Origin: Streptomyces virus Yaboi
Taxonomy: Duplodnaviria; Heunggongvirae; Uroviricota; Caudoviricetes
Strand: one strand, 5' to 3'
Length of the DNA stretch: 64,000 nucleotides
Virus record (IMG/VR): IMGVR_UViG_2974625447_000001
Span: 57,808-121,807 of that record
Shown: positions 562 through 52,474 of the stretch, piece after piece
How the letters are laid out: each line of letters opens with the position of its first letter
Position numbering within the stretch: the stretch's first letter is position 1
Made by a program: the position numbers and the translations under genes
The notes under the pieces: generated by a model
Databases searched by the model: none
Seen by the model: only the letters and a program-made list of their open reading frames with translations
What the model was told of the DNA's origin: nothing

Positions 562-3500
562 ATGAATATCACTGAGCTTCACCTTCATGATTACTACTCA
601 GCTCTAGATGGACTTAACTCACCAGACGAGTATATGGCTCGGGCGAGAGAGCTGGGGATGACACATCTTTCTCAGACTAATCACGGAACACTGGCAGGAC
701 ATCGAGACTTTCAGCGCGCGGCAAAGGATGCAGGCATTGTGCCTATCCTTGGTGTAGAAGCCTACATCTCCGAGACTGGACGTTTCGACAGGACTGCAAA
801 GAACAAGCGTACTGACGGCACCAGCGTTTACAATCACCTCATCATCCTTTCTCAGAATGAGACTGGCCTCAAGACCCTACAGACCATTAATGAAATTGCG
901 TGGCGCGAAGGATACTACTACAAGCCACGTATCGACATGGAAGTTCTTGAGGAGCACAATGACGGGCTGATTGTTCTCTCTGGCTGCCTCAATGGTCTCA
1001 TCTGCAAGGCCCTCGAAGCCGGTAATGCAGAGAAGGCAATTCAGATTGCTCAGAGATTCAAGAGCATTTTTGGAGAGCGATTCTTCATTGAGGTTCAGGC
1101 TCACAATCCGCTGGAAATGAATCAGGGACTCCTGCATATTGCAGACTCTCTCGATATTCGCCCGGTGGTAACGAGTGACTGTCACTATGCTCGTAAGGAA
1201 GACCTATGGATTGAAGAGGCAATGCTGATTCTCTCCACCAATCCTAAGAGCATCAAAGATGCCGAGTTCAACATGGCTAAGTCTCAGAAGATGGAAATCA
1301 TGGAGAGGTTTAATTACCTCTATCCTGACAGAACGATGACGTTCCAGGAGATTGAAATCTATCTGCGCTCCGCAGAGGAGCAGAGGAATGCATTTCTTGA
1401 GCAGGGTATTGATCGCACCGATATCATTACCAACACTAATCTAGTAGCGGACATGATCGGTGAGTATCCGTACCACTCTGGCCTTGATCTGCTTCCTAAG
1501 CCTAAGAACGAAGATCCACAGGCTTTGCTCGAAAAGAAGGCTCGTGCTGGTCTAAAGAATCTTGGACTCGACAACAAGAAGGAATACATCGAGCGTCTTG
1601 AGGAAGAACTCAGGATCATCAAGGAGAAGGACTTCTCTGTATACTTCTTGATTGTTGGAAACATGATCAAGTGGGCCAAGGATCAGAAGATTCGCGTTGG
1701 TCCCGGTCGTGGTTCTGCCGCTGGAAGCCTTGTGTGTTACGCACTGGGAATTACAGAAGTAGATCCGATCAAGTGGGGCCTGCTGTTTTTCCGCTTTATC
1801 GACATCGGCCGTGATGACTGGCCTGACATCGATGTTGACTTTGCTGACCGTGATCGTGATAAGGTCAAGCAGTACCTTCGTCGTCAGTACAAGCATGTGG
1901 CTGAGATTGCTACGATTAACAAGTTCCAGGGTAAGGCCGCTGTAAAGGCTGCTGCTCGTGTATTCCGAGTCCCGGTGGGAGAGGTCAACTCTGCTACTAA
2001 GGACGTAGATGCACCTGCCGATAAGCCAGACCTGTTCTTCGACCTCTTTGGTAAGTCAGAAAAGGGCAAGAAGTTCACCGAGAAATACCCAGAGGTTCTT
2101 GAGCTTGCTCATCACCTCAGTGGTCGCATTCAGTCAATGGGTAAGCACCCTGCTGGTATTGTGGTAGCTAAGGAAGAAATTTCTCGTTACGCTCCAATCG
2201 AAACGGCAAAGGACCCTAACGATGCGAATGCACCACGACTTCCTATCGTTGCGTATGACATGAATGAGGCTGCGGACATTGGGCTAATCAAGCTGGACGC
2301 CCTTGGTCTAAAGACTCTGACTGTTATCGATGACACCCTTGAGATGATCAAGGATCGCACTGGTAAGGAAATTGATCTGCACAAGATCAATCTGGAAGAC
2401 CGAAGTGTATATCAGATGCTTGCAGACGGCTACACTCTCGGTGTATTCCAGGCAGAGGGAAATACCTTCACCAAGTGGATTCTTGAGGCCGGTGCTAGTG
2501 AGTTCAACGATCTAGTTATTGGTACATCAATCGCCCGTCCTGGTCCACTCAACACTGTTGGTGTTAATTACAAGGCCAGGAAGAAGGGCAAGGAGAAGGT
2601 CGAGTATGACCACTTCATTATGAAGAGGCACACTGAGGAAACTCTTGGTCTCATCATTTATCAGGAGCAGGTCATGCTTGCGATGACTGAGCTTGCCGGA
2701 ATGTCAATGACAGAGGCAAACAAGGTTCGTAAGATCATCGGTAAGAAGCGCGACGCAAAGGAATTCGAGCAGTACAAGGACAAGTTCATTGAGGGAGCCA
2801 GCACAAAGGTTCATCGCGCGGTGGCTGAGAAGCTATGGCACGACTTTGAGCAGCACGCTGGATACTCATTCAACAAGTCTCACGCGGTTGTATACTCTAT
2901 GATCACGTACTGGACTGCTTGGTTGAAGAAGCATTATCCTCTGGAATTCATGTGCGCTCTGCTCAAGAATGAAAAGGATACAAGCAAGAAGACTTCAAAG
3001 CTGACCGACTATCTCATTGAGGCCAAGCGTCTGGGAATCAAGATTCTCCTCCCTCACGTAAACGCTTCTAAGGAGGAGTTCAGCATTGAGGAAAATGCCA
3101 TCAGGTTCGGCATCACCAACGTAAAGTACATTCGTGGAAACACGGGTAAGAGGCTTCTGGAGCATGCTCCGTATGCCAACTACGCCGAACTTGAAGCAAA
3201 GGTTATGGAGAAGGGCAGTGGAATGACTGTCCGAGTGCTTACAGCGCTTAATGCCGTTGGTGGGGCTGCCTTTGAGGACAATCCACGCAAGGGGAATGAG
3301 CGTGACAACTTCTACGAATATCTGATGATTCCTGCTTTCGGAACACAGAAGGTTCCTCCACGGGTTCAGAATCAGTTCCGGACCTTGGATGAATACTCTG
3401 CAAAGGGTGCCTTCCCAGTTCTTGCAATGGTTAAGGACGTTCGTAGGGGTGAAGGATGGGCTCGTGTAGAATTGGTTGACGAGACGGGTACGGCTGGCGT

Positions 3501-13744: not shown

Positions 13745-14365
13745 ATGTCTACTACTACAGCTATGTTGCTCATCGTTGACCGATCTGGTAGCATGTCTAG
13801 TATCCAGATGGAAGCAGAGCAAGCGCTGAATGACTTCCTTGATCGGCAGAAGGCCGTAGATGGCCGATGCGGAATTAAGGTCGTTCAGTTTGATAACGAA
13901 GTAGAAGATCTATTTGGTCCAGTTGCCCTAGCTAATGCTCCTGAGATCAAGCTCATTCCTCGCGGAATGACGGCACTACTTGACGCAATAGGCAAGAGTG
14001 TGACAGAATTTAGGCAGACGATGGATCATATGCCGGTGGATAACAAGCTAGTCGTTATCCTCACAGATGGTCTTGAGAATGTCTCTCGGGAGTGGAAGCT
14101 AGATGCAGTTAACAAGCTGATTAGTGAGTCAAGGGAGCTGGGCTACGAGTTCATCTTCCTTGCTGCTAATCAGGACGCCATTGCAACTGGTGCCCAGATG
14201 GGTATTCCAAATGCTTCAAGTTTGACCTTTGCGGCCAGTCCGGCTGGTGTACGTGGCATGGGAGCAACCATGGATGCGTATGTCACTAATTATCGTGAAG
14301 GAAAGAGAGCAGAATTCACTGATCAGGATCGCAAGACAGCCAGCGGCTTGACAGACGAAGACTGA
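13745..14365 (+). CDS. von Willebrand factor A (vWA) domain protein
   Basis: MIDAS motif LIVDRSGSMSS; ...ILTDGLEN. Confidence 0.65.
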   Translation: MSTTTAMLLIVDRSGSMSSIQMEAEQALNDFLDRQKAVDGRCGIKVVQFDNEVEDLFGPVALANAPEIKLIPRGMTALLDAIGKSVTEFRQTMDHMPVDNKLVVILTDGLENVSREWKLDAVNKLISESRELGYEFIFLAANQDAIATGAQMGIPNASSLTFAASPAGVRGMGATMDAYVTNYREGKRAEFTDQDRKTASGLTDED

Positions 14366-14471
14366 TCTGTTAGAGTATTAAATGTGGGTCGAAGGGCTCG
14401 GTCGGTTATCTTACTTGGAATCAGATCGCCATTAAATTGGCACCCGACTCCCAACACTTATCCACATTATT

Positions 14472-15711: not shown

Positions 15712-15740
15712 TTGACAGACGGTACGAGGTCTGTTAGTAT
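15712..15740 (+). promoter_or_regulatory. sigma-70-like promoter TTGACA-N17-TAGTAT
   Basis: gcTTGACAgacggtacgaggtctgtTAGTATtaagt upstream of tRNA-Pro genes. Confidence 0.5.
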
Positions 15741-15841: not shown

Positions 15842-15967
15842 CCGAATGCAGTTCTTTGAGCTGCACGTCCTGCGAGCGTGATGCTGGAATGGTAAGGTGA
15901 TGTCCTGCCATCAAGGTTCGACTCCTTGCGCGTTGCGAACTGGGTGTGATACGATAACTCACAACTA

Positions 15968-16041
15968 CGGGATGTAGCTCAGCTTGGTAGAGCGCGCCGT
16001 TTGGGGCGGTGAAGTCGCAGGTTCGAATCCTGTCATCCCGA
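15968..16041 (+). tRNA. tRNA-Pro (anticodon TGG)
   Basis: acceptor cgggatg/catcccg; D-arm gctcAGCTTGGTAgagc; anticodon loop ttTGGgg (G37); T-arm gcaggTTCGAATcctgt. Confidence 0.8.
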
Positions 16042-16115
16042 CAATTTGGGTCGAATGGGACACGGTTATCATACAATGGATAATAGGTTCGATTCCTATC
16101 GCTGGGTTCGCCCGG
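16042..16115 (+). ncRNA. tRNA-like element X1 abutting tRNA-Pro (paralogue of X2)
   Basis: starts cAATTTGGGTCGAATGGGACACGGTTATC (shared with X2) and contains T-arm-like ataggTTCGATTcctat; no canonical cloverleaf. Confidence 0.3.
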
Positions 16116-16203
16116 TAGATAAAGTCATCTGAGATTGTGTGTGGTAGGATGACATTAAGGACTACACACTCTCCGTTCCCACCTTATACCTAAAGGATTT
16201 ATT

Positions 16204-16725
16204 ATGACGGTACTTCTGCGAACAATTCATGGAAGCCATCTGTATGGCCTCGCTCACGCAGACAGCGATAAGGATATCTACGAAGTAGTTACAACCACTC
16301 GCACTAAGCGTAAGCGAAACATTAAGCAGACCATTTCAAATGGTGTTGACAAGACGACGGTAGATATGTCAACATTTATGAGGATGGTTGATGATTGCGT
16401 ACCTCAAGCACTTGAAGCGCTATGGACGCCGGTAGCTGAGATCGATAAGATCCACGAATTCCGGACACAATATCGAGTGAATCGCGCCAAGATGAAGGAT
16501 GTGTACGTAAGAACTGCTCTGAATTTTGCCAAGAGTGACGGAATTAAGCAGAAGAAGCACGCAGTGCGGCTCTTGCTGAACCTTGGTCACACTTTGGAAT
16601 TTGGAAAGTTCAATCCTCGATTGGATGCAATGGATAAGATCATTATCAATGCATCTGTCGGAGATGCGGGAAAGTATGATGCTGTGTTCGACGCTCTTAT
16701 TGATGAGGTCGGCCGGTGGATATGA
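16204..16725 (+). CDS. Pol-beta-superfamily nucleotidyltransferase
   Basis: HGSHLYGLAHADSDKDIY = GS-x9-DxD NTase signature; 173 aa. Confidence 0.5.
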   Translation: MTVLLRTIHGSHLYGLAHADSDKDIYEVVTTTRTKRKRNIKQTISNGVDKTTVDMSTFMRMVDDCVPQALEALWTPVAEIDKIHEFRTQYRVNRAKMKDVYVRTALNFAKSDGIKQKKHAVRLLLNLGHTLEFGKFNPRLDAMDKIIINASVGDAGKYDAVFDALIDEVGRWI

Positions 16726-16734
16726 TCCCACCAT

Positions 16735-16811
16735 TGGGGCGTATACCCTCTGTCTGATAAACAGTTGAAAGGTTAAGTGGTCACATGTGGGTTCAACTCC
16801 CACCGTCCCAA
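16735..16811 (+). tRNA. non-canonical tRNA-like gene W1 (anticodon-like loop GAT, Ile)
   Basis: acceptor tggggcg/cgtccca (7 bp) and T-arm gtgggTTCAACTcccac are canonical. The only anticodon-like hairpin (tctgt-ctGATaa-acagt, U33/A37) sits at positions 15-31 directly after a 7-nt linker tataccc. A 21-nt region with a D-loop-like AAGTGG follows. Confidence 0.45.
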
Positions 16812-19273: not shown

Positions 19274-19796
19274 CATGATGACACTAAATGAACTGATGAA
19301 GTGCAAGCGTTGCCATCGACACGAGCCTTTGTGGGCTCACGATCTTGGTAATTTCTGCATTGAATGTGCGCATCTGGCGGATCAAATAAAGGCTGATGAA
19401 TGCAAGATTCTTGCATTTCTTGCGTATGAGCCACATGAATTCGCCCAGGGAGATGCTGTCTGGGATCTTATAAGCGGAGATCGTGGATACTTCTTCACCG
19501 AAGGCTTGCATTGCTATCACGTTCTTGTCGATGGCGAAGTTAAGCAATATCCGAAGATAAATATTTATCTGTCCAACGTGGAGGACTAATGGATAGCAAG
19601 AAGGGACTTAGCGTCGGAACCAAGGTTATCGTTGGTCCCGACAAGGCTAAGGGTGAGATCTGGGATCTTGGAACGAATCCCACTCTTGTTAAGGTTCTGA
19701 TGAAGGAAGGTACTTGGGAAGGTCAGGTTATGCTGGTCGTCCTTAAGCAGATCAAGCTTGACAAGTAAGCAAAGGGCCTGATAGAATCAGGCTATT

Positions 19797-21037: not shown

Positions 21038-21768
21038 CGCCCGGCGGCGGGCGGCGGAGGGGTTCTGCCTTTGTCGTTCTCTATATACTAAGAAGAAGCA
21101 AGGGAAGGGGTGACTTGACAGAGCAGGAGAGACCTGTTAAGGTAAATTATACTGGGAAGAGAAAAGAAAAAGAGTAACTTAAATCGATCTTCAAATCGAT
21201 AAGAGATAATAATATAGGGATATTATATATGAGACTGTTCGAGCTGCACAGAGATATTGATTCATCAGGCGTCAGCGGCACAGGCATCGTTGCTCAGGGT
21301 GTAGAGTTTGACAACGGGCAGTGCGCTATGTCATGGTTGTCTCAGTGGACCTCAGTCGCCTTGTATCCAGACATTGAGACGCTGGAAGCGATTCATGGAC
21401 ACAACGGCAACACTCGTGTAGTATGGCTAGAAGACGACGAAGACTACTGGGCAGGCTATCAGTCAGCTCCAGTCCGACCTTGAGGATCTAAATGTTCAAT
21501 GGCTTCGGTGAGTTCCTTGACATGGTTGACAAGGGTATGGCACAGTGGGAAGCAGAACAAGAAAAGATTCGTGAAGCATTCAAGGATGGTGTAACCGTCG
21601 AGTTTGAAGACGGAGAAGTGCGAGAGTACGGACCGTTTGACAAGCCCTCACCTTGATGCTACTGTAGTTAGTAGGTGGTCAGCCATAAGGCGGTAACGTT
21701 GAATTGGCCCGCCACTCGTGAGTAAGTTATCCCTACGCCTTGGCGGAGAATCCCTGCTTGCTCACTAT

Positions 21769-21845
21769 GGCCTCTGGGACTGCTAGGTTGTGGTCACTGC
21801 CCTGTCAAGGCAGACATCAGGCGGGTTCGATTCCCGTAGGGGTCG
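21769..21845 (+). tRNA. tRNA-Asp (anticodon GTC)
   Basis: acceptor ggcctct/aggggtc; anticodon arm ctgcc-ctGTCaa-ggcag; T-arm gcgggTTCGATTcccgt. Confidence 0.6.
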
Positions 21846-22086
21846 CTTCTGTAACCAATATAAGGGAAAATAATGGCCAATAGCGAATGGCATGTTAAGG
21901 GCACCATTAAGGTAAATGGCAAGAATGATGTCGTTGATGACATTGTTACTGCTCCTTCTGCTGAGAAGGCTAAGAGAGTCATGTATGATCGACTTGAGAG
22001 CATGAAGGGCGGCCCAGTTACATACACTGATCTCAAGATTACTAGTGTTCGTCTGTATCGGCGATAATATTGCCCTTCGGGGCTAA

Positions 22087-22157
22087 CCCGGCGTAGTGTA
22101 ATGGAAACACGATTCGTTGTCAGCGAATTATCGAGGGTTCGATTCCCTTCGTCGGGA
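22087..22157 (+). tRNA. tRNA-Asp (anticodon GTC)
   Basis: acceptor cccggcg/cgtcggg; anticodon arm attcg-ttGTCag-cgaat; T-arm gagggTTCGATTccctt. Confidence 0.7.
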
Positions 22158-22232
22158 CTTTTGGGTCGAATGACTATCGGTTATCTGTCTATGAAACAGA
22201 CTGAAACACGGTTCGAATCCGTGGCTTGCTTT
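22158..22232 (+). ncRNA. tRNA-like element X2 abutting tRNA-Asp, candidate Y-RNA-like/tRNA-mimic near rsr
   Basis: starts cTTTTGGGTCGAATG, contains hairpin gtct-atgaaac-agac and T-arm-like acacgGTTCGAATccgtg but no pairable acceptor; homologous to X1. Confidence 0.35.
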
Positions 22233-22713
22233 GGATGCTAGGTTTACGGTCGATGTCAACAACTTACCCATACAATTTTATATCGGGCCGAAGAGTATCG
22301 ATTATCTTACACTGCAAATGAAAGATCGATATTCACCAACTTGCCCGATCTTTTCATTTCTACGAAAGGATCAAAGGTTGGACACCGAAGCGCGCATCGC
22401 ACGTTTCAAGGAGCTTTGGCAATCAGGCGAAAGCTATTGGGCAGAAGACATTGTTGATGAAATCAATGGTGAGCTGTCAGACGATGAGTTCAAGCTGAGG
22501 CATGTAGATCAAATCGAAGAGGACACCTCTCGATGGATGGATCACATGTTGGATATCGTTGAAATTAACGAAGGTGTCTTCGTTGGAGTACGCTGGGAAA
22601 GCGGCAAGACGGAGATGCAAGAGAATATGTATGAAGACGATTCCGTCTATCTGCTTGAGCGAGTAGAGAAGGTCATCACTACTGTTGAGTGGAATGATCT
22701 AAAGACTCTCTAA
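22231..22713 (+). CDS. hypothetical acidic protein upstream of Ro60
   Basis: 160-aa ORF. Confidence 0.4.
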   Translation: MDARFTVDVNNLPIQFYIGPKSIDYLTLQMKDRYSPTCPIFSFLRKDQRLDTEARIARFKELWQSGESYWAEDIVDEINGELSDDEFKLRHVDQIEEDTSRWMDHMLDIVEINEGVFVGVRWESGKTEMQENMYEDDSVYLLERVEKVITTVEWNDLKTL

Positions 22714-22748
22714 TATCAATTGCCCTAAAAGGGCCGGAAAGGAAAGAA

Positions 22749-24374
22749 ATGTCCAACGCACTAACTAACGCCGCAAAGGCAGCAAACAAGACTTCTCAGT
22801 CAATGAAGGCTAAGGCTGGACAGGTTAAGAACAACGCTGGTGGATTCGTCTTCCAGGTTTCTGACCAGGCCCGCCTTGAGCGTTTCCTTATTCTGGGAAC
22901 TGACGGAGGAACGTACTACGTCAATGAGGTTAACCACACTCAGAAGAACGTAGATTTCCTTAACGAGTTTATTGCTCGTGACGAAGCTGCTGTCCTGAAC
23001 ACGATTGTTGATGTCTCTGTCAATGGCCGTGCATACAAGCAGTCTCCAGCCCTTTTCGCCCTTGCTTCTGTTATTGTCAATGGCAAGGACAAGCAGGCGG
23101 TAAAGGCTGTATTCAACAAGGTCGTAAGGACTGCTACTCATCTCTACGAGGTGGTTAACTACCTTAACGAGCTTGGTGGATGGGGTCGCGCAAAGCGCGA
23201 GATCGTGGCTGGCTGGTTCGATAGGGACGCTGATAAGCTTGCTTATCAGGCAGTCAAGTATCGTTCCCGTAAGTTCGGTGGCAACACCTGGACGCTACGA
23301 GACGTGATGCGAAAGGCTCATCCACAGAACGTTGATGCGAATGTAGCTGCCTTTATCACAAAGGGGGATGTTGTAACAGACTCTCCAGTTGCGATTAAGG
23401 GTTTCGCCCGAATGCAGAAGGCAACTTCTGTTGAGGAAGTCCACAGCGTTCTTCGTGAATACGAGATGCTTTCATGGGAGACAATTCCAACACAGTTCCT
23501 CACGGATGCCAGTGTTTGGAAGCGACTCTTTGCTAATGGTCAGCTTCGCGGCCAGGCTGCTGTTCGAAACATCACTCGCCTTGCGCGTATTGGTGCCTTC
23601 AAGGATATGCGTTTCGCTGCGAACTTTGCTAGCCAGCTAACGAATGAGGAAATGATTCGTCAGTCTCGACTGCACCCAATCAACTTCCTTAACGCTGCCG
23701 TTGTTTATGCGGAAGGCCAGGTGGATCGAAAGACCTACTATGGTGGTCGTGTGAAGAACTGGGAGACTGAGGGCGTTATTGTCGATGCTATCGATGAGGC
23801 GTTTCACAAGTCATTCAAGACCATTGAGCCAGCGGGAAAGAGGACGATGCTCGCCATCGACTGTTCCGGTTCAATGAGTGCACTTGCGTCAGGTCTCGAT
23901 CTAACTTGTGCACAGGTCGCTGCTGCAATGGCAATGACTGTTGCACGTACTGAGCCAGCTCACATTATTCGTGGCTTCTCCAGCGCGGGTTACAACTGGC
24001 GTGACAGTGGTCTAGCTGAGCTAAAGATTACCGGCCGTTCCTCTCTTGCCCAGGCAATGAGTGAGATGCGAAAGGTGAACTGGGGCGGAACTGACTGCTC
24101 ACTGCCAATGACGTGGGCTCTTGAGAACAGGGTTGAAGTTGACACCTTTGTTGTTATCACTGATAACGAGACATGGGCTGGAAAGATTCACCCATTCCAG
24201 GCTCTCAAGCAGTATCGCAAGAGCATGGGAATCGATGCGAAGCTTGCTGTTCTAGGAGTTTCTGCAACTGATTTCTCTATCGCTGATCCAAGTGATCGCG
24301 GCATGATGGATTTCGTTGGCTTTGATAGCAACGCTCCACGTGTTCTGGCTGACTTCTCTGCGGGTCGTCTCTGA
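22749..24374 (+). CDS. rsr: Ro60/TROVE-domain RNA-binding protein (Rsr homologue) with C-terminal vWA
   Basis: 541 aa; N-terminal RLERFLILGTDGGTYYV matches Ro60 RLHRFLCFGSEGGTYYI; PALFALASV matches Ro60 PMLFALAIC; C-terminal vWA MIDAS LAIDCSGSMS; RBS ggaaaggaaag; terminator 24376-24405. Confidence 0.85.
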   Translation: MSNALTNAAKAANKTSQSMKAKAGQVKNNAGGFVFQVSDQARLERFLILGTDGGTYYVNEVNHTQKNVDFLNEFIARDEAAVLNTIVDVSVNGRAYKQSPALFALASVIVNGKDKQAVKAVFNKVVRTATHLYEVVNYLNELGGWGRAKREIVAGWFDRDADKLAYQAVKYRSRKFGGNTWTLRDVMRKAHPQNVDANVAAFITKGDVVTDSPVAIKGFARMQKATSVEEVHSVLREYEMLSWETIPTQFLTDASVWKRLFANGQLRGQAAVRNITRLARIGAFKDMRFAANFASQLTNEEMIRQSRLHPINFLNAAVVYAEGQVDRKTYYGGRVKNWETEGVIVDAIDEAFHKSFKTIEPAGKRTMLAIDCSGSMSALASGLDLTCAQVAAAMAMTVARTEPAHIIRGFSSAGYNWRDSGLAELKITGRSSLAQAMSEMRKVNWGGTDCSLPMTWALENRVEVDTFVVITDNETWAGKIHPFQALKQYRKSMGIDAKLAVLGVSATDFSIADPSDRGMMDFVGFDSNAPRVLADFSAGRL

Positions 24375-24375
24375 G

Positions 24376-24405
24376 CAAAACCCCTCTTCGGAGGGGTTTT
24401 TTGCT
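24376..24405 (+). terminator. rho-independent terminator after rsr
   Basis: aaaacccctcttcggaggggttttttgc. Confidence 0.7.
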
Positions 24406-25325
24406 ATACTAGATAGATGATTAGTAAAGAAGAACGAAAACAATTGAAGCTTGCAAGGTCAAAGGCAGAACTTGTAAGAACCGTAACGAGCATCTTCCAG
24501 ATGATTATTGGATCTGCCACCCTCATCATTCTGGTCTATGTCAACTTCGGACGTTGACAAGTCGTCGGGGGTACGCTACCTTAGAGACATGAACAGAGAG
24601 ACACCAGGAGTGACGCTCTCTAGCCTGTTCCGAATGATCTTTCAGAGATCTGCTAAGGAGCGCCCGGCGGCAGTAGAGTCCACTTGTGGTCATTGTAAAA
24701 CCAAGTACAATGTCAACGTAGGGCATATGTGTCCCTACATCAAAGAACTCTATACTAAGCTGAGGGAAGAATGAACTACACAAGCCGAACCTATCGATTC
24801 AGTGGTTCCAACAAGTTGGCAGATGAAATCGCGTACCTTGCGGTAAAGAATCACCTTCGTGTCAGCACTAGGACTTCAACTGGTCTTCTAAGGAAGAACC
24901 ACATGTTCGTCGTCTTTGGCGACACTGACGGCCTTGGTCGATTTGAATCTGAGATGGAAAACGCCAAGCGGAGGATCAAGTGACATTTGAGCAGAAGTTC
25001 AAGAAGGCGTTCCGAGAGGTTCGTAAGCACGACGTAGCGGCCAAGATGCAGGTCTGGGAGTGTTGCAGGGGCTGTATCGGAAAGGAAAAATTGGGCATGG
25101 CCTCCGACGCCGACCCGTATGTTTACACATATGCAGGTCAGGGTTCAAGGCTTCGGTTCAATGGCGATTCAGTAGTGTATGCTGACAGTCGTCGGGCCGT
25201 TCCTCACATCTACGTTTATCACGGAAACGGCGGCGGCGAGAGGTTTGCCGAGGTTGCCAAGTCCCTTGGTCTTGATGTAGAGTGGGATGGAAGCAAGTGG
25301 CAGGCAATCGTAGTAAAGGTGCCCA

Positions 25326-28334: not shown

Positions 28335-28448
28335 AGGAGTGTAGTTTAATTGGCAAAACCGCGAAATGCACTGCCGAAAGTGATGTGGCGTAGCCCGCAG
28401 TGAGTAGGTAACAGAGTAGCAGTTGCGGGTTCGAGTCCCGTCGCTCCG
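28335..28448 (+). ncRNA. tRNA-like RNA with about 40-nt internal insertion (pseudo-tRNA or insertion-containing tRNA)
   Basis: 5' acceptor-like aggagtg plus canonical D-arm gtttAATTGGCAaaac; 3' T-arm gcgggTTCGAGTcccgt plus cgctccg; 64 nt between them with no anticodon arm. Confidence 0.3.
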
Positions 28449-28585
28449 CTAGCCTGAGACGACGATCCGATGTAGGTCCCCTAGGGCTTGCGCAGGCCCG
28501 AAGGGCATTCGGGAAAGGTTCCTAGCTAGGTCCGTCTATCAATAGGGTGAGAGTTTTGACAGTTTCCTCATAATAAACTGTCCCC

Positions 28586-28878: not shown

Positions 28879-28956
28879 GCCCTAGTATCGCCACTGGCTT
28901 CTAACCAGTCGTTAACAGCGTAATGGAGTATGCAGGTTCGAGTCCTGTCTAGGGTA
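28879..28956 (+). tRNA. non-canonical tRNA-like gene W2 (anticodon-like loop TCT, Arg)
   Basis: acceptor gccctag/ctagggt; 7-nt linker tatcgcc; hairpin actgg-ctTCTaa-ccagt at positions 15-31; 22-nt region with AATGG; T-arm gcaggTTCGAGTcctgt; same layout as W1 and W3. Confidence 0.45.
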
Positions 28957-31467: not shown

Positions 31468-31539
31468 TGGCCTATAGCTTAACGGCAGAGCGATGGACTG
31501 TTAATCCATTAGGTGCTGGTTCGAATCCAGCTAGGTCAG
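31468..31539 (+). tRNA. tRNA-Asn (anticodon GTT), second copy
   Basis: acceptor tggccta/taggtca; anticodon arm atgga-ctGTTaa-tccat; T-arm gctggTTCGAATccagc. Confidence 0.7.
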
Positions 31540-31567
31540 CTCCAACAACAGCTAACAAAGGATATAA

Positions 31568-32437
31568 ATGGGTTACCTCATTTTTGCGGTAATTTTTACA
31601 CTGCTCACTGTAGGTGGAATCGGTCTCTATCTCTTTACAAAGGATAAGGGATCTCTGCTAGTGGGAGCTGTTGGTGGCATGGTGCTGATTGGTGGATCAT
31701 TTCTTTGGTCTATCACAGTAGTAGACAGCCGTAGCGTTGGTATTCAGACTTCATTCAATCGATACCAGGGAACGCTTGACAGTGGTTTCCAGCTAACGGC
31801 TCCATGGTCAGAGCATGAAGACTTCACTACCCGAATCCAGTACCTCGACCTTGACGGTGAGAAGTGGGAGGATGGTGCGCCTGTCACCTTTAAGGGCGGC
31901 GGTCGCGGTGTGGTTTTTGCTACTCCTCGCTGGAAGATTGATGAGGAGTCCGCTGGTAAGCTTTGGAACAAGTACAAGACTTTCGACAATGTTCGGGACC
32001 AGCTTGTTCGTTCCTCAGTGAAGGATTCATTCCGAGCTGTGCTTACCGATTACACTCCGAATGAGGCTCGTGAGAATGTTCGTGAGATCACTCGTGAGGT
32101 AGAAAAGGATCTGGCTACTACCCTTACTGATGATGGTATTAAGATCGACTCCATCAGCATTAAGGACATCAAGCTTGACGAACGTACTCAGTCTTCACTA
32201 GACAAGATTGTTCAGGCTAACAACGACATTGAGCGTGCTCGTGCTGAGCAGGAGCGTGCCAAGATCGATGCCGAAACTCTCAAGATCAAGGAGAAGGCTG
32301 GTAACTTGACCGAGGGTGGTCTTATGGACAAGTGCCTGACCATGATGGACAAGTGGGATGTCAAGAAGAACGGTAACCTGCCTGCGGGCTTTAGCTGCAA
32401 TGGCTCTGGCGCTCCGTTCACCGTCACCAACAAGTAA
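31568..32437 (+). CDS. SPFH/band-7 (prohibitin-like) membrane protein
   Basis: N-terminal TM; SPFH core; C-terminal coiled coil; strong terminator 32488-32513. Confidence 0.7.
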   Translation: MGYLIFAVIFTLLTVGGIGLYLFTKDKGSLLVGAVGGMVLIGGSFLWSITVVDSRSVGIQTSFNRYQGTLDSGFQLTAPWSEHEDFTTRIQYLDLDGEKWEDGAPVTFKGGGRGVVFATPRWKIDEESAGKLWNKYKTFDNVRDQLVRSSVKDSFRAVLTDYTPNEARENVREITREVEKDLATTLTDDGIKIDSISIKDIKLDERTQSSLDKIVQANNDIERARAEQERAKIDAETLKIKEKAGNLTEGGLMDKCLTMMDKWDVKKNGNLPAGFSCNGSGAPFTVTNK

Positions 32438-33196: not shown

Positions 33197-33273
33197 GTCT
33201 CCATATCTCCTCTGCCTCCTAAGCAGTTGAAAGAGTAACCGGATACATGTGGGTTCGACTCCCACTGGGGACA
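33197..33273 (+). tRNA. non-canonical tRNA-like gene W3 (anticodon-like loop CCT, Arg)
   Basis: acceptor gtctcca/tggggac; linker tatctcc; hairpin tctgc-ctCCTaa-gcagt at 15-31; 21-nt region tgaaagagtaaccggatacat (near-identical to W1); T-arm gtgggTTCGACTcccac. Confidence 0.45.
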
Positions 33274-43424: not shown

Positions 43425-44501
43425 ATGAAGTTCACCAAGATTTTCTCTCAGGAGCTTCTTGACGAGATGATCGCTGAGGGCTACGTCCGGGTGCAAACTC
43501 ATCCGGTCCTGCCTCTCAAGATTCTTAACTACTCTGAGAAGACTCAGTTCGCCGGAAAGTGGAACGAGTGCACGCTTAACTGCCGAGGCACAATTGTTGA
43601 CTTTGACGGCAACCTGATCGCTCGTCCTTTCATGAAGTTCTTTAACCTGGGTGACTCTCAGTCTGCACAGCTTGACTGGGATGCTCCGGTTGAGGTTACC
43701 GACAAGAAGGACGGGTCTATGGGAGTCTTGTACTCCTATAATGGAGAGCTGGCAATTGCAACTCGCGGCTCATTCATGTCAGATCAGGCAATTCACGCGA
43801 CTCGCGTTCTGAACGAGCGATACAGCCACATTCAGTTCGTCTCAGACTACACATTCATCTTCGAGATCGTTTACCCTGAGAACAGGATCGTTCTGGACTA
43901 CGGTTCACTTGACGACCTGATTCTGTTGGGTGCGGTTCACAAGGAGCATGGGTACGTCTGTGGCCCTCTGGAGGCTCAGGCAATTGTAAATTGGGACGGG
44001 CCGGTGACGGAGGTCTTCAATTACTCATCATTGCGTGAGGCGGCAGGGGCGCAGTACAGGAAGAACGCAGAGGGTTTCGTCGTCCGATCAGGCTCTAAGA
44101 TGGTCAAGATCAAGCAGGCAGATTACGTTGAGCTGCACCGCATGATCTCCATGCTTTCAGAGCGCTCTGTATGGAGTCAGCTCACCGAGGGAAAGACAAT
44201 TCTTGAGATTTGTGAGGCACTGCCTGACGAGTTTCACGGATTCGTCAAGGATGTCGGTGGCAAGCTGCTGGAGGAGTACAAGCGCATTGAGGTTGAGGTT
44301 TACGGTATCTACCAGAACCTTCTGACTTCTTTGGGCGAGGGCTTCTCACGCCGAGACTTCGCTATGGCTGCAAACCGAATTGATCTGTACCGATCTCACA
44401 TGTTCAACCTGCTTGACGGGAAGAGCATCGATGAGCTAATCTGGAAGCAGATCAAGCCGGAGGCCAAGCGAGAGGACGTACACCCTACTAATGCAGGCTA
44501 A
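43425..44501 (+). CDS. ATP-dependent RNA ligase (covalent nucleotidyltransferase, KxDG motif)
   Basis: motif I VTDKKDGSMGVLY (KxDG lysine nucleotidylation site); 358 aa; adjacent to polynucleotide kinase-phosphatase. Confidence 0.7.
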   Translation: MKFTKIFSQELLDEMIAEGYVRVQTHPVLPLKILNYSEKTQFAGKWNECTLNCRGTIVDFDGNLIARPFMKFFNLGDSQSAQLDWDAPVEVTDKKDGSMGVLYSYNGELAIATRGSFMSDQAIHATRVLNERYSHIQFVSDYTFIFEIVYPENRIVLDYGSLDDLILLGAVHKEHGYVCGPLEAQAIVNWDGPVTEVFNYSSLREAAGAQYRKNAEGFVVRSGSKMVKIKQADYVELHRMISMLSERSVWSQLTEGKTILEICEALPDEFHGFVKDVGGKLLEEYKRIEVEVYGIYQNLLTSLGEGFSRRDFAMAANRIDLYRSHMFNLLDGKSIDELIWKQIKPEAKREDVHPTNAG

Positions 44502-45230: not shown

Positions 45231-46139
45231 ATGAACGAAGGAGGCAGCGTGCAGCTTCTAATTCTCCGGGGCGTTCCCGGTTGTGGTAAGAGCACCTGGG
45301 CACACGATGTGTGGCTCAAGGGAAACCCGAATGGTGTTCGTGTAAACCGTGACGACATTCGTATGCAGCTCTTTGGCCGGGAGACCGGAGTAGATGAGGA
45401 GCTTGTAACTCGAATTGAGCACGGAATGGTGGAAGGCGCTCTGTCAAAGGGCTACTCTGTCATTGTCGATGACACCAACATTCGACACAAGTACATCAAG
45501 GAATTTGTCAAGATTGGTCAGCGTCATGGCGCTAGCGTTGCTGTAAAGCAATTCGATGTCTCTCTTGAGACGGCAATTGCTCGAAACAAGGCGCGTGCTG
45601 AGGCCGGTGGCCGAGACGTTCCTGAGTCCGTTATCCGTAGAATGCATCAGTCTCTCAAGTCTAGTGGAATTTTCACTGACTTCCACACTGATGTTACGGC
45701 CGTTCGTCCTTATGAGCGTCCCGAAGGTGCAGAGAAGGTCTACCTCTTTGACATTGACGGCACGCTTGCTGAGATGAATGATCGTGATCCCTTCAATTGG
45801 AGGGAAGTTGGAACGGATGATCCGCGACGACAGGTGATCCTTACTGCTCAGGCTCACGCCAAGGCAGGATACAAGATCATCGTCATGAGTGGACGAGATG
45901 GCTCATGTCGCAATGAAACAATCGCTTGGCTGAACCTGTACGACATTCCTTTCTCAGAATTGCACATGCGTGCTGAGGGGGATATGCGCAAGGACTCCAT
46001 CGTCAAGCAAGAGCTGTTCGATGAGCACATTCGGGACATCTATGATGTTGTGGCTGTGTACGATGATCGTCAGCAGGTTGTTGACATGTGGCGTGCGATG
46101 GGCATAGACTGTTTCCAGGTAGCACCCGGAAACTTCTGA
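45231..46139 (+). CDS. polynucleotide 5'-kinase/3'-phosphatase (Pnkp, T4 PseT-like)
   Basis: N-terminal P-loop LRGVPGCGKSTWA kinase; C-terminal HAD phosphatase LFDIDGTLAEM; terminator 46141-46170. Confidence 0.85.
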   Translation: MNEGGSVQLLILRGVPGCGKSTWAHDVWLKGNPNGVRVNRDDIRMQLFGRETGVDEELVTRIEHGMVEGALSKGYSVIVDDTNIRHKYIKEFVKIGQRHGASVAVKQFDVSLETAIARNKARAEAGGRDVPESVIRRMHQSLKSSGIFTDFHTDVTAVRPYERPEGAEKVYLFDIDGTLAEMNDRDPFNWREVGTDDPRRQVILTAQAHAKAGYKIIVMSGRDGSCRNETIAWLNLYDIPFSELHMRAEGDMRKDSIVKQELFDEHIRDIYDVVAVYDDRQQVVDMWRAMGIDCFQVAPGNF

Positions 46140-51703: not shown

Positions 51704-52474
51704 ATGGCTAAGATCATGATCGCCGGTGACTGGCATGGCGACACTGTTCATGCCCGTAAGACTGTCCGACGTGCGGATGCCATGGGCGTCCGTAAGATCA
51801 TGCAGGTTGGTGACTTCGGTTACTGGGAGCATGATGAGGATGGTGTCACTTATCTCGACGCTCTGAATGAGGAGTGCCGTAAGTATGGCGTCAAGGTTTA
51901 TTTCGTTGCCGGTAACCATGAGAATTGGGACCGACTCGACTGGCTTGAGGCCAATAACCCGAAGACCTACAATGGTCTGACAATCATCCGAAGCCATATC
52001 CGTTACACTGGGCGAGTTAATCGCTGGCGTTTCGATGACAGGTGGTTCCAGGCCGTTGGTGGCGCTGTTTCAATTGACAAGAACCGGCGCAAGCTTGGAA
52101 AGACTTGGTGGGCTCAGGAGGCTGTTCCTGAGAAGGTTGTCAAGCAGCTTGAGATAGTTGGAAATCAGTCCGACATCCTCTTGACGCATGACTCTCCTAC
52201 TCATGCTCCGTTCGGATTCCGCTTGAAGGATGATCCTGACTCAACGGCTCATCGTCAGCTAATGGACAGGGTTGGCCGTGTGGTCCGTCCGACATTGTGG
52301 TTTCACGGCCACTATCACACGTGGATGGAGAATTACCCATTCGCCCACCAGCTTGGTGAGGCCAGTGTTTATGGCCTTGAGATGAATGGCATGTTCTACA
52401 ACTACTGTGTTCTTGACACGGACAACATGTCAGTCCAGACTGCTACTGGAAAGATCAACCACCTTCTTACTTGA
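51704..52474 (+). CDS. calcineurin-like metallophosphoesterase
   Basis: GDWHGD, GDFGYW, GNHE motifs. Confidence 0.75.
   Translation: MAKIMIAGDWHGDTVHARKTVRRADAMGVRKIMQVGDFGYWEHDEDGVTYLDALNEECRKYGVKVYFVAGNHENWDRLDWLEANNPKTYNGLTIIRSHIRYTGRVNRWRFDDRWFQAVGGAVSIDKNRRKLGKTWWAQEAVPEKVVKQLEIVGNQSDILLTHDSPTHAPFGFRLKDDPDSTAHRQLMDRVGRVVRPTLWFHGHYHTWMENYPFAHQLGEASVYGLEMNGMFYNYCVLDTDNMSVQTATGKINHLLT

What the first reader, a model, noticed from the sequence alone, without database searches (positions are those of the whole stretch)
22087..24405. Phage-encoded Ro60/TROVE (Rsr) orthologue with candidate tRNA-like Y-RNA elements upstream
ORF 22749-24374 has the diagnostic Ro60 N-terminal motif (RLERFLILGTDGGTYYV) and a C-terminal vWA/MIDAS domain. 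Bacterial Rsr proteins are partnered with Y RNAs (YrlA) that contain a tRNA-like module with a GGTTCGAATCC T-arm. About 500 nt upstream, directly abutting tRNA-Asp, lies X2 (22158-22232). It has a T-arm-like hairpin but no acceptor stem and starts TTTGGGTCGAATG, reminiscent of the GGUCCGA Ro-binding helix strand of Y RNAs. A paralogue, X1 (16042-16115), shares the 5' 25 nt and the T-arm. This could be a phage Ro-Y RNA RNP acting on the phage's own large tRNA set.
Basis: partly seen in the sequence, partly recalled or inferred. Interest (0 to 1): 0.75.

Follow-up and report, generated by a model that had tools for sequence, protein, structure and literature searches.

The report
Phage Ro60 gene with four Y RNAs
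This Streptomyces phage carries a Ro60 (Rsr) RNA-binding protein gene plus four unannotated small "Y RNA" genes scattered through its tRNA gene array, a pairing already known from mycobacteriophages but here with unusual RNA shapes and placement.

Summary
The window is Streptomyces phage Yaboi (cluster BE). ORF 22749-24374 is a genuine Ro60/Rsr orthologue and is already annotated as such. Each continues to a 3' strand that closes a Ro-binding-type bulged helix (GGGU-CGAA ... CAACUU-ACCC). This gives Y1 (22160-22271) and X1 (16045-16194).

Two more family members were missed:
- Y2 (22282-22348) is a short hairpin. It matches the Rfam nematode Y-RNA family RF01656 at its cut-off.
- Y0 (14383-14465) sits just downstream of a conserved promoter-like site, ahead of tRNA-Gly.

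A covariance model built only from Y1 orthologues recovers all four elements. It also recovers the published mycobacteriophage YrlA and bacterial YrlA loci. In 28 viral Rsr loci it gave 36 hits, all on the rsr strand and 35 of them upstream of rsr. Covariation supports the helices.

The Rfam YrlA model itself does not detect any of the four. Y1 lacks the acceptor-like stem-loop. X1 has an enlarged D-loop that looks pseudoknotted, and it lies 6.5 kb from rsr, abutting an RlaP nucleotidyltransferase gene.

Verdict: the identity claims hold. This is a new structural variant of a known kind. Expression, Rsr binding and the proposed role in tRNA surveillance or repair are untested.

The parts
22749..24374 (+). 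rsr: Ro60/Rsr orthologue (Yaboi gp130, annotated 'Ro-like RNA binding protein'). TROVE plus vWA domains, with an intact MIDAS motif (DCSGS).
   Evidence: Pfam PF05731 8.5e-34 and PF25045 3.2e-62. Full-length match to D. radiodurans Rsr 2NVO (2e-104) and Xenopus Ro60 1YVP (6.6e-84). Annotation.
22160..22271 (+). Lower stem 22162-22166/22266-22270. CGAA 22167-22170 opposite AACAACUU. Upper stem 22171-22174/22255-22258 and 22176-22180/22250-22254. UUAUC 22181-22185. V hairpin 22187-22201. T arm 22207-22223. One weak D-like hairpin 22225-22241 with GG in its loop. No acceptor-like stem-loop.
   Evidence: R1 hit of 35.3 bits, E 1.8e-6. MFE recovers the closing stem. 12-phage alignment. Covariation.
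22282..22348 (+). Y2: short Y RNA hairpin (YrlB-like). AUCGGGC-CGAA-GAGUAUCGAU...AUCGAUAUUC-ACCAACUU-GCCCGAU, followed by a conserved CUUUUCAUUU tract.
   Evidence: Rfam RF01656 (nematode sbRNA, a Y RNA homologue) 38.2 bits against a gathering score of 38, E 1.3e-5. R1 32.9 bits. MFE z = -3.7. 4 of 10 upper-stem pairs show compensatory changes.
16045..16194 (+). X1 (extended): a YrlA-like Y RNA with V, T and acceptor-like (AS) hairpins, a 6-bp D-like helix with an 18-nt loop, and a second helix interleaved with it (candidate pseudoknot). The 3' strand of the closing stem overlaps the RBS (16192-16197) of the RlaP gene.
   Evidence: R1 22.2 bits; the full-length orthologue scores 29.3 bits in Daubenski. 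In a 16-phage alignment 96.8% of cells are paired, and 6 pairs carry compensatory changes against 0-3 in slid controls.
14383..14465 (+). Y0: short Y RNA (no T arm) with the same GUGGGU-CGAA...UCGGUUAUC...CCGA...ACACUU-AUCCAC frame. It lies 6 nt upstream of tRNA-Gly.
   Evidence: R1 35.0 bits, E 2.1e-6. Orthologues in 5 phages show upper-stem covariation by eye. MFE closing stem.
14348..14376 (+). Sigma-70-like promoter (TTGACA-17-TAGAGT, with TG before the second hexamer). It would place the transcript start at about the 5' end of Y0.
   Evidence: Consensus scan. The site and its spacing to Y0 are conserved in 5 phages. Function is inferred.
22087..22158 (+). tRNA-Asp(GTC) directly abutting Y1, with no encoded CCA. 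Its 3' processing would create the Y1 5' end (inferred).
   Evidence: ARAGORN and Rfam. In BoomerJR a 526-bp homing-endonuclease insertion separates the two exactly at this junction.
15968..16042 (+). tRNA-Pro(TGG) directly abutting X1.
16204..16725 (+). RlaP-family nucleotidyltransferase (gp110), immediately downstream of X1.
   Evidence: Pfam PF10127 RlaP, 5.9e-6, 26.6 bits against a cut-off of 23. The tRNA-Pro / X1 / RlaP order is conserved in all BE phages examined.
22378..22713 (+). gp129: small conserved ORF between the Y RNAs and rsr. No Pfam match.
   Evidence: Annotation. No Pfam hit. An ORF occupies the same position in all BE phages fetched.
24383..24402 (+). Intrinsic-terminator-like hairpin plus T tract after rsr, marking the end of the transcription unit.
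   Evidence: sequence.
43425..44501 (+). Context: Rnl1-type RNA ligase (gp206).
   Evidence: Pfam PF09511 1.1e-15; annotation.
45249..46139 (+). Context: Pnkp-type polynucleotide kinase/phosphatase (gp210).
   Evidence: Pfam PF25109 2.2e-52 and AAA_33.

Best explanation
The phage encodes a Ro60/Rsr ring protein and a family of four cognate Y RNAs: Y0, X1, Y1 and Y2.

Each RNA has a basal bulged helix (5' GGGY-CGAA / 3' CAAYUU-RCCC) followed by an upper stem ending in CGGUUAUC. This corresponds to the Ro-binding module of bacterial YrlA/YrlB and of animal Y RNAs. The distal modules differ:
- Y1 keeps only a tRNA 'elbow' (T arm plus a D-like hairpin), with no acceptor-like stem.
- X1 has T and acceptor-like arms plus an enlarged, apparently pseudoknotted D region.
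- Y2 and Y0 are plain hairpins.

Inferred steps: the RNAs are transcribed with the phage tRNA array. Y0 would sit at the 5' end of a transcript, and X1 and Y1 follow tRNA-Pro and tRNA-Asp directly. They would be released by tRNA end-processing. By analogy with the Deinococcus and Salmonella Rsr-Y RNA-PNPase complex, Rsr would bind the basal helix of each RNA. The distal module would then tether or gate Rsr towards partners such as host PNPase or tRNA-handling enzymes. The assembly would act in surveillance or repair of structured RNAs, most plausibly the phage's 41 tRNAs, alongside the phage's RlaP, RNA ligase and Pnkp.

Shown here: protein identity, RNA motifs, conserved structure, homology to YrlA, and the genomic association with rsr. 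Inferred only: expression, processing, Rsr binding, partners and biological role.
For: Protein:
- TROVE and vWA_Ro60 domains.
- Full-length similarity to solved Rsr and Ro60 structures.

RNA motifs:
- All four elements carry the published YrlA hallmarks GNCGAAN0-1G and YUAY (PMC4201824; sequences).
- The 15-nt signature occurs 3 times against 0.00 expected.

Homology:
- Model R1 was built from 8 Samistivirus Y1 orthologues only.
- It recovers Y1, Y0, Y2 and X1 in the window at E 2e-6 to 4e-3.
- It also recovers the Catera mycobacteriophage YrlA (E 0.003-0.006).
- It hits immediately upstream of rsr in Chthonomonas and Poribacteria MAGs. In three loci (L244, L245, L246) Rfam YrlA hits the same coordinates.
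- Y2 reaches the gathering score of Rfam RF01656, the nematode Y-RNA homologues.

Association with rsr:
- In 28 viral Rsr loci there were 36 R1 hits. All lie on the rsr strand and 35 are upstream of rsr.

Structure:
- Across 69 elements, 94.3% of cells are paired and 22 of 24 pairs carry double-sided changes. That is 253 cells, against at most 64 in slid controls.
- The X1 and Y2 helices covary.
- MFE folds close the same stems.

Context:
- RlaP, Rnl1-type ligase, Pnkp, a Band-7 protein, a tmRNA and 41 tRNAs lie in the same window.
- There is a terminator after rsr and a conserved promoter-like site before Y0.
Against: - There are no expression or binding data.
- The Rfam YrlA model RF02553 gives no hit on any of the four elements at E<=10.
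- Y1 lacks the AS stem-loop. In Yaboi itself its D-like hairpin is weak: 4 of 5 pairs, with one U-U mismatch.
- X1 lies 6.5 kb and Y0 8.3 kb from rsr, outside the 4-kb criterion of Chen et al.
- MFE z-scores are unremarkable except for Y2.
- The large covariation alignment was fitted to the model, which biases it towards the structure.
- The BE phages are closely related, so the X1 and Y2 statistics rest on few independent changes.
- No phage or host partner of the distal modules has been identified.
Confidence: 0.72

Rival explanations
1. X1, Y1 and the others are decayed tRNA genes or spacer/processing hairpins of the tRNA array. They have no functional link to Rsr.
For: - They sit inside a tRNA array and abut tRNA genes.
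- Mildred21's annotators called the Y1 orthologue 'tRNA-Ser(tga)'.
- Other degenerate tRNA-like pieces exist nearby at 15900-15935 and 16735-16811.
Against: - The conserved part is not tRNA-like. It is the GGGU-CGAA/CAACUU-ACCC bulged helix plus CGGUUAUC, which is shared with YrlA RNAs lying next to rsr in mycobacteriophage and in bacteria that have no tRNA array there.
- Y2 and Y0 have no tRNA features at all.
- Strand and position are tightly coupled to rsr across 28 viral loci.
- The helices covary.
Confidence: 0.06
2. Some copies act mainly in cis. X1 would be a structured 5' leader controlling translation of the RlaP gene. Y2 plus its U-tract would be a leaky terminator or attenuator ahead of gp129-rsr. 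Rsr binding would be secondary or autoregulatory.
For: - The 3' strand of the X1 closing stem (ACCUAAA, 16188-16194) overlaps the AAAGGA RBS at 16192-16197, 10 nt before the RlaP ATG. This arrangement is conserved in 16 phages.
- The Y2 basal stem is followed by the conserved tract CUUUUCAUUU.
Against: - Only 3 nt of the RBS lie inside the stem.
- The terminator scan did not call Y2.
- The same RNA frame occurs where no downstream gene could be regulated: Y0 lies before tRNA-Gly and Y1 before Y2.
- This reading is compatible with the main explanation rather than exclusive of it.
Confidence: 0.12
3. The Y-like RNAs work without the phage Rsr. They would act as decoys or sponges that mimic tRNA elbows, titrating host tRNA-targeting nucleases, RNase P/Z or PNPase during infection.
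For: - Y1 and X1 retain canonical T-loops (UUCGAAU, UUCGAUU) and D-loop GG residues.
- The phage invests heavily in tRNA supply and RNA repair genes.
Against: - This does not explain the invariant Ro-binding-type helix, which is also present in the non-tRNA-like Y2 and Y0.
- It does not explain the strict co-occurrence and co-orientation with rsr.
Confidence: 0.08

Closest known systems
Mycobacteriophage (Bxz1/Catera, cluster C) Ro60 with predicted YrlA RNAs (Chen et al. 2014, PMC4201824)
   Same: - An actinophage-encoded Ro60 with Y RNAs upstream on the same strand, in a phage with a large tRNA set and a tmRNA.
- Catera also has three Y-like elements: short, YrlA, short.
- They share GGC-CGA(A/U)...UCGGUUAYC and ...ACCAUGU-CU...
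- R1 detects the Catera YrlA.
   Different: - The Rsr proteins are only about 40% identical.
- Catera's YrlA has the full T-AS-D order with a textbook D arm, UAGCUCAGUGGUAGAGC. Yaboi Y1 has no AS.
- Yaboi X1 has an expanded D loop with a candidate pseudoknot, and lies next to RlaP 6.5 kb away.
- In Yaboi the Y RNAs abut tRNA genes.
S. Typhimurium and M. smegmatis YrlA/YrlB bound to Rsr (Rfam RF02553; crystal structure 6CU1, bioRxiv 10.1101/312249)
   Same: - The GNCGAAN0-1G motif, a YUAY motif starting the V loop, V and T arms, and a T-loop/D-loop elbow.
- One tRNA-like and one or more hairpin-type Y RNAs per locus.
- Association with RNA-repair genes.
   Different: - No RF02553 hit at E<=10.
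- The AS is absent from Y1.
- The phage uses an Rnl1-type ligase plus Pnkp and RlaP rather than an adjacent RtcB/RtcA operon.
- Binding and tRNA-type modifications are not shown here.
D. radiodurans Yrn1/Yrn2-Rsr-PNPase (RYPER) complex
   Same: - The Ro60 orthologue is 2e-104 to 2NVO.
- Multiple Y RNAs are encoded upstream, beside a tRNA gene.
- It is the functional model: a Y RNA tethers Rsr to an exoribonuclease.
   Different: No PNPase gene was seen in the window. A host partner is only inferred. The order of Yrn1's tRNA-like features differs from that of YrlA-type RNAs.
Metazoan Y RNAs and nematode stem-bulge RNAs (Rfam RF00019, RF01656)
   Same: Y2 aligns to RF01656 over the UCGG(G/U)CCG-A...GGUUAUC 5' strand and the CCAACUUG(C/A)CCG 3' strand, at the family's gathering score.
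   Different: - The host is a bacteriophage, so there is no Pol III context.
- The hit is marginal and appeared only in the sensitive local scan, not in the whole-window gathering scan.
- There is no RF00019 hit.
[quoted passage not shown]
   Same: tRNA-like RNAs are placed next to RNA-repair proteins. The window has a Band-7 gene directly after tRNA-Asn, and RlaP directly after X1.
   Different: The phage genes are dispersed over about 30 kb rather than forming one operon. The X1-RlaP pairing is not, to my knowledge, described.

Membership tests
Ro60 / Rsr (TROVE) proteins | TROVE domain | tested here: met
   PF05731, 8.5e-34, 117.9 bits against a cut-off of 23.
Ro60 / Rsr (TROVE) proteins | C-terminal Ro60-type vWA domain with a MIDAS motif | tested here: met
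   PF25045, 3.2e-62. DCSGS...GGTDC...ITDNE are visible in the translation.
Ro60 / Rsr (TROVE) proteins | Full-length similarity to structurally characterised Ro60/Rsr | tested here: met
   2NVO 2e-104 (residues 16-540) and 1YVP 6.6e-84.
Ro60 / Rsr (TROVE) proteins | Binds Y RNA on the outer ring surface | not testable with these tools
   Needs EMSA or RIP.
YrlA-type bacterial Y RNA (Chen 2014; Rfam RF02553) | 5' GNCGAAN0-1G motif | tested here: met
   Y1 GUCGAAUG, X1 GUCGAAUG, Y0 GUCGAAG, Y2 GCCGAAG.
YrlA-type bacterial Y RNA (Chen 2014; Rfam RF02553) | YUAY motif at the start of the V loop, plus a V hairpin | tested here: met
   UUAUC is invariant in the 12-phage Y1 alignment and the 16-phage X1 alignment. 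V hairpins are GUCU/AGAC (Y1) and UAUC/GAUA (X1).
YrlA-type bacterial Y RNA (Chen 2014; Rfam RF02553) | T stem-loop (5 bp, UUCGAAU-type loop) | tested here: met
   Present in Y1 at 22207-22223 and in X1 at 16083-16099. All 5 T-stem pairs covary. Absent from Y2 and Y0, which are of the YrlB type.
YrlA-type bacterial Y RNA (Chen 2014; Rfam RF02553) | [quoted passage not shown] | tested here: not met
   Y1: only 1-3 nt separate the T stem from the D-like hairpin in all 12 BE phages. X1 does have an AS: CUGGG-UUCG-CCCGG, with different sequences in other phages such as Evy (GGUUCCC/GGGAACU).
YrlA-type bacterial Y RNA (Chen 2014; Rfam RF02553) | D stem-loop with the conserved GG | tested here: inconclusive
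   Textbook in Samistivirus Y1 orthologues (UA-GCCC-AAGGCAC-GGGC, with GCCC/GGGC changing to GGCC/GGCC). Weak in Yaboi Y1 (CUUGC-UUUGGAU-GCUAG, one U-U mismatch). X1 has a 6-bp helix with an 18-nt loop containing GUGGUAG.
YrlA-type bacterial Y RNA (Chen 2014; Rfam RF02553) | Encoded within 4 kb of rsr on the same strand | tested here: met
   Y1 ends 478 nt and Y2 401 nt upstream of the rsr start, on the same strand. Not met for X1 (6.5 kb) or Y0 (8.3 kb), although both are on the same strand.
YrlA-type bacterial Y RNA (Chen 2014; Rfam RF02553) | Reaches the Rfam RF02553 gathering score (69 bits) | tested here: not met
   No RF02553 hit on any of the four elements at E<=10. The model is narrow: the Catera YrlA scores 36 bits and bacterial YrlA next to rsr score 33-43 bits, all below 69.
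YrlA-type bacterial Y RNA (Chen 2014; Rfam RF02553) | Detected reciprocally with accepted YrlA loci | tested here: met
   R1, built from BE Y1 orthologues only, hits the Catera YrlA (24.2 bits) and the same coordinates as RF02553 in L244, L245 and L246.
YrlA-type bacterial Y RNA (Chen 2014; Rfam RF02553) | Co-purifies with Rsr; carries tRNA-type modifications (Psi55, D) | not testable with these tools
   Experimental only.
Animal Y RNA / nematode sbRNA (RF01656) | Reaches the family gathering score | tested here: inconclusive
   Y2 scores 38.2 against 38 bits in the sensitive local scan. It was not listed in the whole-window gathering scan. I read this as shared Ro-binding helix architecture, not as membership.

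The most novel reading that the evidence does not exclude
Phage Rsr loci encode modular sets of Y RNAs that share one Rsr-binding handle. Their distal modules differ: hairpin, elbow-only, full tRNA mimic, or pseudoknotted. Each module would direct Rsr to a different partner. In BE phages one of them, X1, is physically and perhaps regulatorily coupled to the RlaP tRNA-end-repair enzyme. The whole would form a phage-borne tRNA repair and quality-control RNP that counters host anticodon nucleases. The natural loss of the acceptor-like stem in Y1, and in similar elements of other phage contigs, would identify the T/D elbow as the effector-binding surface.
Probability: 0.2. Interest if true: 0.75.

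Novelty: new variant of a known kind. Interest (0 to 1): 0.5.

Why it matters
What bacterial Ro60-Y RNA particles do, and why YrlA mimics tRNA, is still unresolved.

These phages offer a compact and genetically tractable system. It has one Rsr and four structurally graded Y RNAs in a genome that also carries 41 tRNAs, a tmRNA, RlaP, an RNA ligase and Pnkp.

The elbow-only Y1 is in effect a natural deletion experiment. It suggests the acceptor-like stem is dispensable.

The X1-RlaP adjacency gives a concrete, testable link between Y RNAs and tRNA end repair.

There is also a practical point. About 115 Streptomyces phage records match this Rsr. The Y RNAs were unannotated in the records examined here, and in one record (Mildred21) a Y1 orthologue is labelled as a tRNA.

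Tried and rejected
1. Rfam YrlA (RF02553) as the decisive test. There was no hit on the elements. The only window hit (20 bits, 15911-15993) is the known artefact in which the T arm of one tRNA-like piece is joined to the D arm of the next tRNA.

2. The idea that the 526-bp LAGLIDADG insertion in BoomerJR, Stanimal, Sollertia and Genie2 is an intron inside the Y RNA. It is rejected. The insertion lies exactly between the tRNA-Asp 3' end and the Y1 5' end.

3. The long TTG-started ORF 22231-22713, which would overlap Y1 and Y2. It is rejected in favour of the annotated 22378 start, which has an RBS.

4. A bulged register for the second X1 helix (GUGU-G-GUAG/CUACACAC). It was replaced by the contiguous register 93-100/118-125, because only that register makes the Daubenski and Riptide changes compensatory.

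5. IMG/VR pattern scans. Most of the 119+ and 68 matches are chance hits. Only those confirmed by R1 or lying on BE-like contigs were used.

6. MFE z-scores as evidence. They are uninformative for Y1, Y0 and X1 (z = -0.9 to -1.6).

7. The supplement of Chen 2014 and the 2020 Annual Review were not available. I therefore could not check whether any Streptomyces phage was among their 22 phages.

8. The single-protein genome-contig scan returned only 7 loci and no Mycobacterium or Streptomyces host locus.


Full report
**Source and context**

The window is identical to Streptomyces phage Yaboi, MH727564 (cluster BE, Karimacvirus). Window position equals record position minus 57807. ARAGORN finds 41 tRNA genes and a tmRNA, all on the + strand. 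Rfam agrees.

**The protein**

ORF 22749-24374 (541 aa) contains the quoted motif.
- It matches Pfam TROVE (8.5e-34) and vWA_Ro60 (3.2e-62).
- It aligns end to end with D. radiodurans Rsr 2NVO (2e-104) and Xenopus Ro60 1YVP (6.6e-84).
- The MIDAS residues (DCSGS, TD, D) are visible in the translation.
- GenBank already annotates it as 'Ro-like RNA binding protein' gp130.
- Relatives occur in 357 phage records: 212 Mycobacterium, 115 Streptomyces, and others.

So this part of the finding is correct and already known.

The 220-nt stretch between tRNA-Asp (22087-22158) and the annotated start of gp129 (22378) carries no annotation. Both folding and comparison show that it continues.

- The 5' segment UGGGU-CGAA-UGAC-U-AUCGG pairs with UCGAU-GUCA-AACAACUU-ACCCA at 22250-22270.
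- Between the two strands lie, in order: UUAUC, a small V hairpin (GUCU-AUGAAAC-AGAC), the T arm (CACGG-UUCGAAU-CCGUG), and one further hairpin with GG in its loop.
- This is the layout Chen et al. 2014 defined for YrlA: a GNCGAAN0-1G motif, YUAY opening the V loop, then V, T, AS and D stem-loops. The AS stem-loop is missing.
- In twelve BE phages the element is conserved, and the helices change in a compensatory way. Position 2 of the lower stem is U-A, A-U or C-G. The upper stem shows C-G changing to U-A.
- In the Samistivirus orthologues the post-T hairpin is a textbook D arm (UA-GCCC-AAGGCAC-GGGC, with GCCC/GGGC changing to GGCC/GGCC). It lies only 1-3 nt after the T stem.
- In Yaboi itself that hairpin is weak (CUUGC-UUUGGAU-GCUAG, one U-U mismatch).

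**A missed second RNA, Y2**

A sensitive Rfam scan of 21700-24600 gave a hit at 22279-22351 to RF01656. That family comprises nematode stem-bulge RNAs, the worm homologues of Y RNAs. The score was 38.2 bits against a gathering score of 38, with E 1.3e-5.

- Y2 is a hairpin: AUCGGGC-CGAA-GAGUAUCGAU ... AUCGAUAUUC-ACCAACUU-GCCCGAU.
- Its MFE z-score is -3.7.
- Four of the ten upper-stem pairs show compensatory changes among only four distinct sequences.
- It occurs in the Karimacvirus phages and Tomas but not in the three Samistivirus phages included in that alignment.

X1 also extends, to 16194. Its 5' segment UUUGGGU-CGAA-UGGGA-C-ACGG pairs with CCGU-UCCCA-CCUUAU-ACCUAAA.

- Inside are a V hairpin (UAUC/GAUA), a T arm, and an AS hairpin whose sequence varies between phages. 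Examples are CUGGG/CCCGG, GGUUCCC/GGGAACU and GUGC/GCAC. The AS pairs were read by eye and were not included in the counted structure.
- A 6-bp helix follows (GUCAUC/GAUGAC). Its 18-nt loop contains GUGGUAG, resembling the 3' half of a D loop.
- Part of that loop (GUGUGUGG) can pair with CUACACAC downstream. This gives two interleaved helices.
- On 16 phages the whole structure, pseudoknot included, is 96.8% paired. It has 6 pairs with compensatory changes, against 0-3 in slid controls. Each of the upper stem, the T arm, helix A and helix B carries at least one such pair.
- These phages are closely related, so the evidence is consistent but thin.
- X1 lies between tRNA-Pro and gp110, which is an RlaP-family nucleotidyltransferase (PF10127). 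The 3' strand of the closing stem overlaps the gene's RBS.
- The order tRNA-Pro / X1 / RlaP is conserved in every BE phage examined.

**A covariance model ties the elements together**

Model R1 was built from eight Samistivirus Y1 orthologues only. In the window it finds:
- Y1 at 35.3 bits, E 1.8e-6;
- Y2 at 32.9 bits;
- X1 at 22.2 bits;
- a fourth element, Y0 (14383-14465), at 35.0 bits, E 2.1e-6.

Y0 is a short hairpin-type RNA built on the same frame. It lies 6 nt before tRNA-Gly. A promoter-like site (TTGACA-17-TAGAGT, with an upstream TG) ends 7 nt before it. That site and its spacing are conserved in five phages.

R1 also hits accepted YrlA loci:
- The YrlA of mycobacteriophage Catera (24.2 bits, E 0.003-0.006). 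That locus contains a short, a YrlA and a short element sharing GGC-CGA..UCGGUUAYC.
- A position immediately upstream of rsr in five of seven genome-collection loci (MAGs labelled cyanobacterium, Chthonomonas and Poribacteria). In three of these, Rfam's YrlA model matches the same coordinates at 36-38 bits.

Rfam's YrlA model has a gathering score of 69. It scores even the Catera YrlA at only 36 bits, and it gives nothing on the Yaboi elements.

**Association with rsr**

In 28 viral contigs encoding an Rsr relative, R1 gave 36 hits at E<=0.05. All are on the rsr strand, and 35 are upstream of rsr. Typically there are 2-5 per locus.

Across 69 aligned elements:
- 94.3% of cells pair, against 31-51% when the 3' partners are slid.
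- 22 of 24 pairs show double-sided changes.
- That amounts to 253 cells, against at most 64 in the slid controls.

This alignment was fitted to the model, which favours the structure.

The elements sort into classes:
- canonical T-AS-D, for example Gilson L149:3206-3334 and Catera;
- T plus one hairpin with no AS, which covers BE Y1 and also elements in other contigs, such as L051:2614-2723 with GCUC-AGUGGCA-GAGC directly after the T arm;
- plain hairpins;
- longer forms.

The AS-less form is therefore recurrent rather than a one-off decay product.

**How it probably works**

Shown here are the Ro60 orthologue, four RNAs carrying the conserved Ro-binding-type helix, their structural conservation, their homology to YrlA, and their linkage to rsr. 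The rest is inferred.

- Y0 would start a transcript. X1 and Y1 begin 3-4 nt after the discriminator base of a tRNA that lacks an encoded CCA. tRNA 3' processing would therefore create their 5' ends.
- In BoomerJR and relatives a homing-endonuclease gene is inserted precisely at the tRNA-Asp/Y1 junction. This shows that the two are separable units.
- A terminator follows rsr.
- By analogy with the Rsr-Y RNA-PNPase particle and with YrlA biology (PMC4201824; bioRxiv 10.1101/312249), Rsr would bind the basal helix and the distal modules would recruit partners.
- The window also encodes RlaP, an Rnl1-type RNA ligase, Pnkp, a Band-7 protein and a metallophosphoesterase.
- RlaP enzymes add 1-2 nucleotides to damaged RNA 3' ends and help restore tRNA function (PMC12776372). 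Phage RNA-repair sets of this kind, including TROVE proteins, have been discussed for jumbo phages (PMC7824862).
- A role in surveillance or repair of the phage's tRNAs is therefore plausible, but it is untested.

**Novelty**

Phage Ro60 together with YrlA was reported in 2014 for mycobacteriophages: 22 phages, with the list not available to me. I found no paper describing Y RNAs in Streptomyces phages. They are unannotated in the records I examined, and in Mildred21 one is labelled tRNA-Ser.

The new elements are these:
- the four-member family dispersed through a tRNA array;
- the acceptor-less elbow-only Y1;
- the X1 form, with an enlarged and apparently pseudoknotted D region, coupled to RlaP.

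I rate this as a new variant of a known kind, of moderate interest.

Noticed in passing
window 16735-16811 (+): An unannotated tRNA-like element lies just downstream of the RlaP stop codon. It scores 30.3 bits on the Rfam tRNA model against a gathering score of 29. Its D arm is reduced to about 4 nt, it has a long variable region, and its anticodon loop is CUGAUAA. ARAGORN does not call it. RlaP is therefore flanked by X1 upstream and this element downstream.
   Followed up: partly
window 31468-32437 (+): A Band-7/SPFH protein gene (PF01145, 8e-22) directly follows tRNA-Asn(GTT). This recalls the 'Band-7-associated tRNA' RNA-repair modules described by Burroughs and Aravind.
   Followed up: no
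window 43425-44501, 45249-46139 and 51704-52474 (+): An Rnl1-type RNA ligase, a Pnkp-type kinase/phosphatase and a metallophosphoesterase. Together they form a T4-like tRNA repair kit in the same phage arm as rsr and RlaP.
   Followed up: partly
L002 (BoomerJR) 683-1208; also Stanimal, Sollertia and Genie2: A 526-bp insertion carries a 155-aa ORF, annotated as a LAGLIDADG endonuclease in Sollertia. It lies exactly between tRNA-Asp and Y1 in phages that are otherwise 99.8-99.9% identical to Yaboi. It looks like a free-standing homing endonuclease targeting this junction.
   Followed up: partly
L011 4080-4223, L012 4213-4356 and L010 5466-5609: Samistivirus BE phages carry an additional 144-nt Y RNA directly after tRNA-Ile. 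It has the canonical T-AS-D order (D arm UA-GCUC-AAUGGCA-GAGC) plus an extra hairpin. Yaboi has a small CDS (gp114) at that position instead.
   Followed up: partly
L010 2397-2479 and L012 1140-1222 (NootNoot, Cross); also Jay2Jay: An 82-nt tRNA-like insert lies between tRNA-Pro and X1. It has an acceptor-like pairing (UAGCCCC/GGGGCU) and a CCGG-UUAAAUU-CCGG hairpin.
   Followed up: no
window 15860-15940 (+): A degenerate tRNA-like remnant with a T arm (AAGG-TTCGACT-CCTT) lies between the two tRNA-Pro genes. Together with the D arm of the next tRNA it produces a spurious 20-bit RF02553 hit.
   Followed up: partly
window 28335-28449, 33197-33273 and 28879-28956 (+): Rfam finds tRNA hits near its threshold (31.2, 29.9 and 32.8 bits) that ARAGORN does not call. 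The first is 115 nt long and could contain an intron or insert. The third is annotated in GenBank as tRNA-Val(aac).
   Followed up: no
window 14348-14376, 15712-15740 and 19758-19787 (+): A recurrent phage promoter-like motif, TTGACA-N17/18-TAG(A/T)(G/A)T with an upstream TG, heads segments of the tRNA array.
   Followed up: partly
window 22349-22362 (+): The Y2 basal stem is followed by the conserved tract CUUUUCAUUU. It may define the Y2 3' end or act as a leaky terminator before gp129-rsr. The terminator scan did not call it.
   Followed up: no
L008 (Mildred21) 3079-3150: The 5' two-thirds of the Y1 orthologue is annotated in GenBank as 'tRNA-Ser(tga)'. This is probably a mis-annotation caused by the tRNA-like module.
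   Followed up: yes
L243 (CAINGU010000031.1, labelled as an uncultured cyanobacterium MAG): This 110-kb contig encodes an Rsr 57% identical to Yaboi's. It has Y-like RNAs upstream and an array of about 20 tRNA genes downstream. It looks like a phage contig binned into a bacterial MAG.
   Followed up: no
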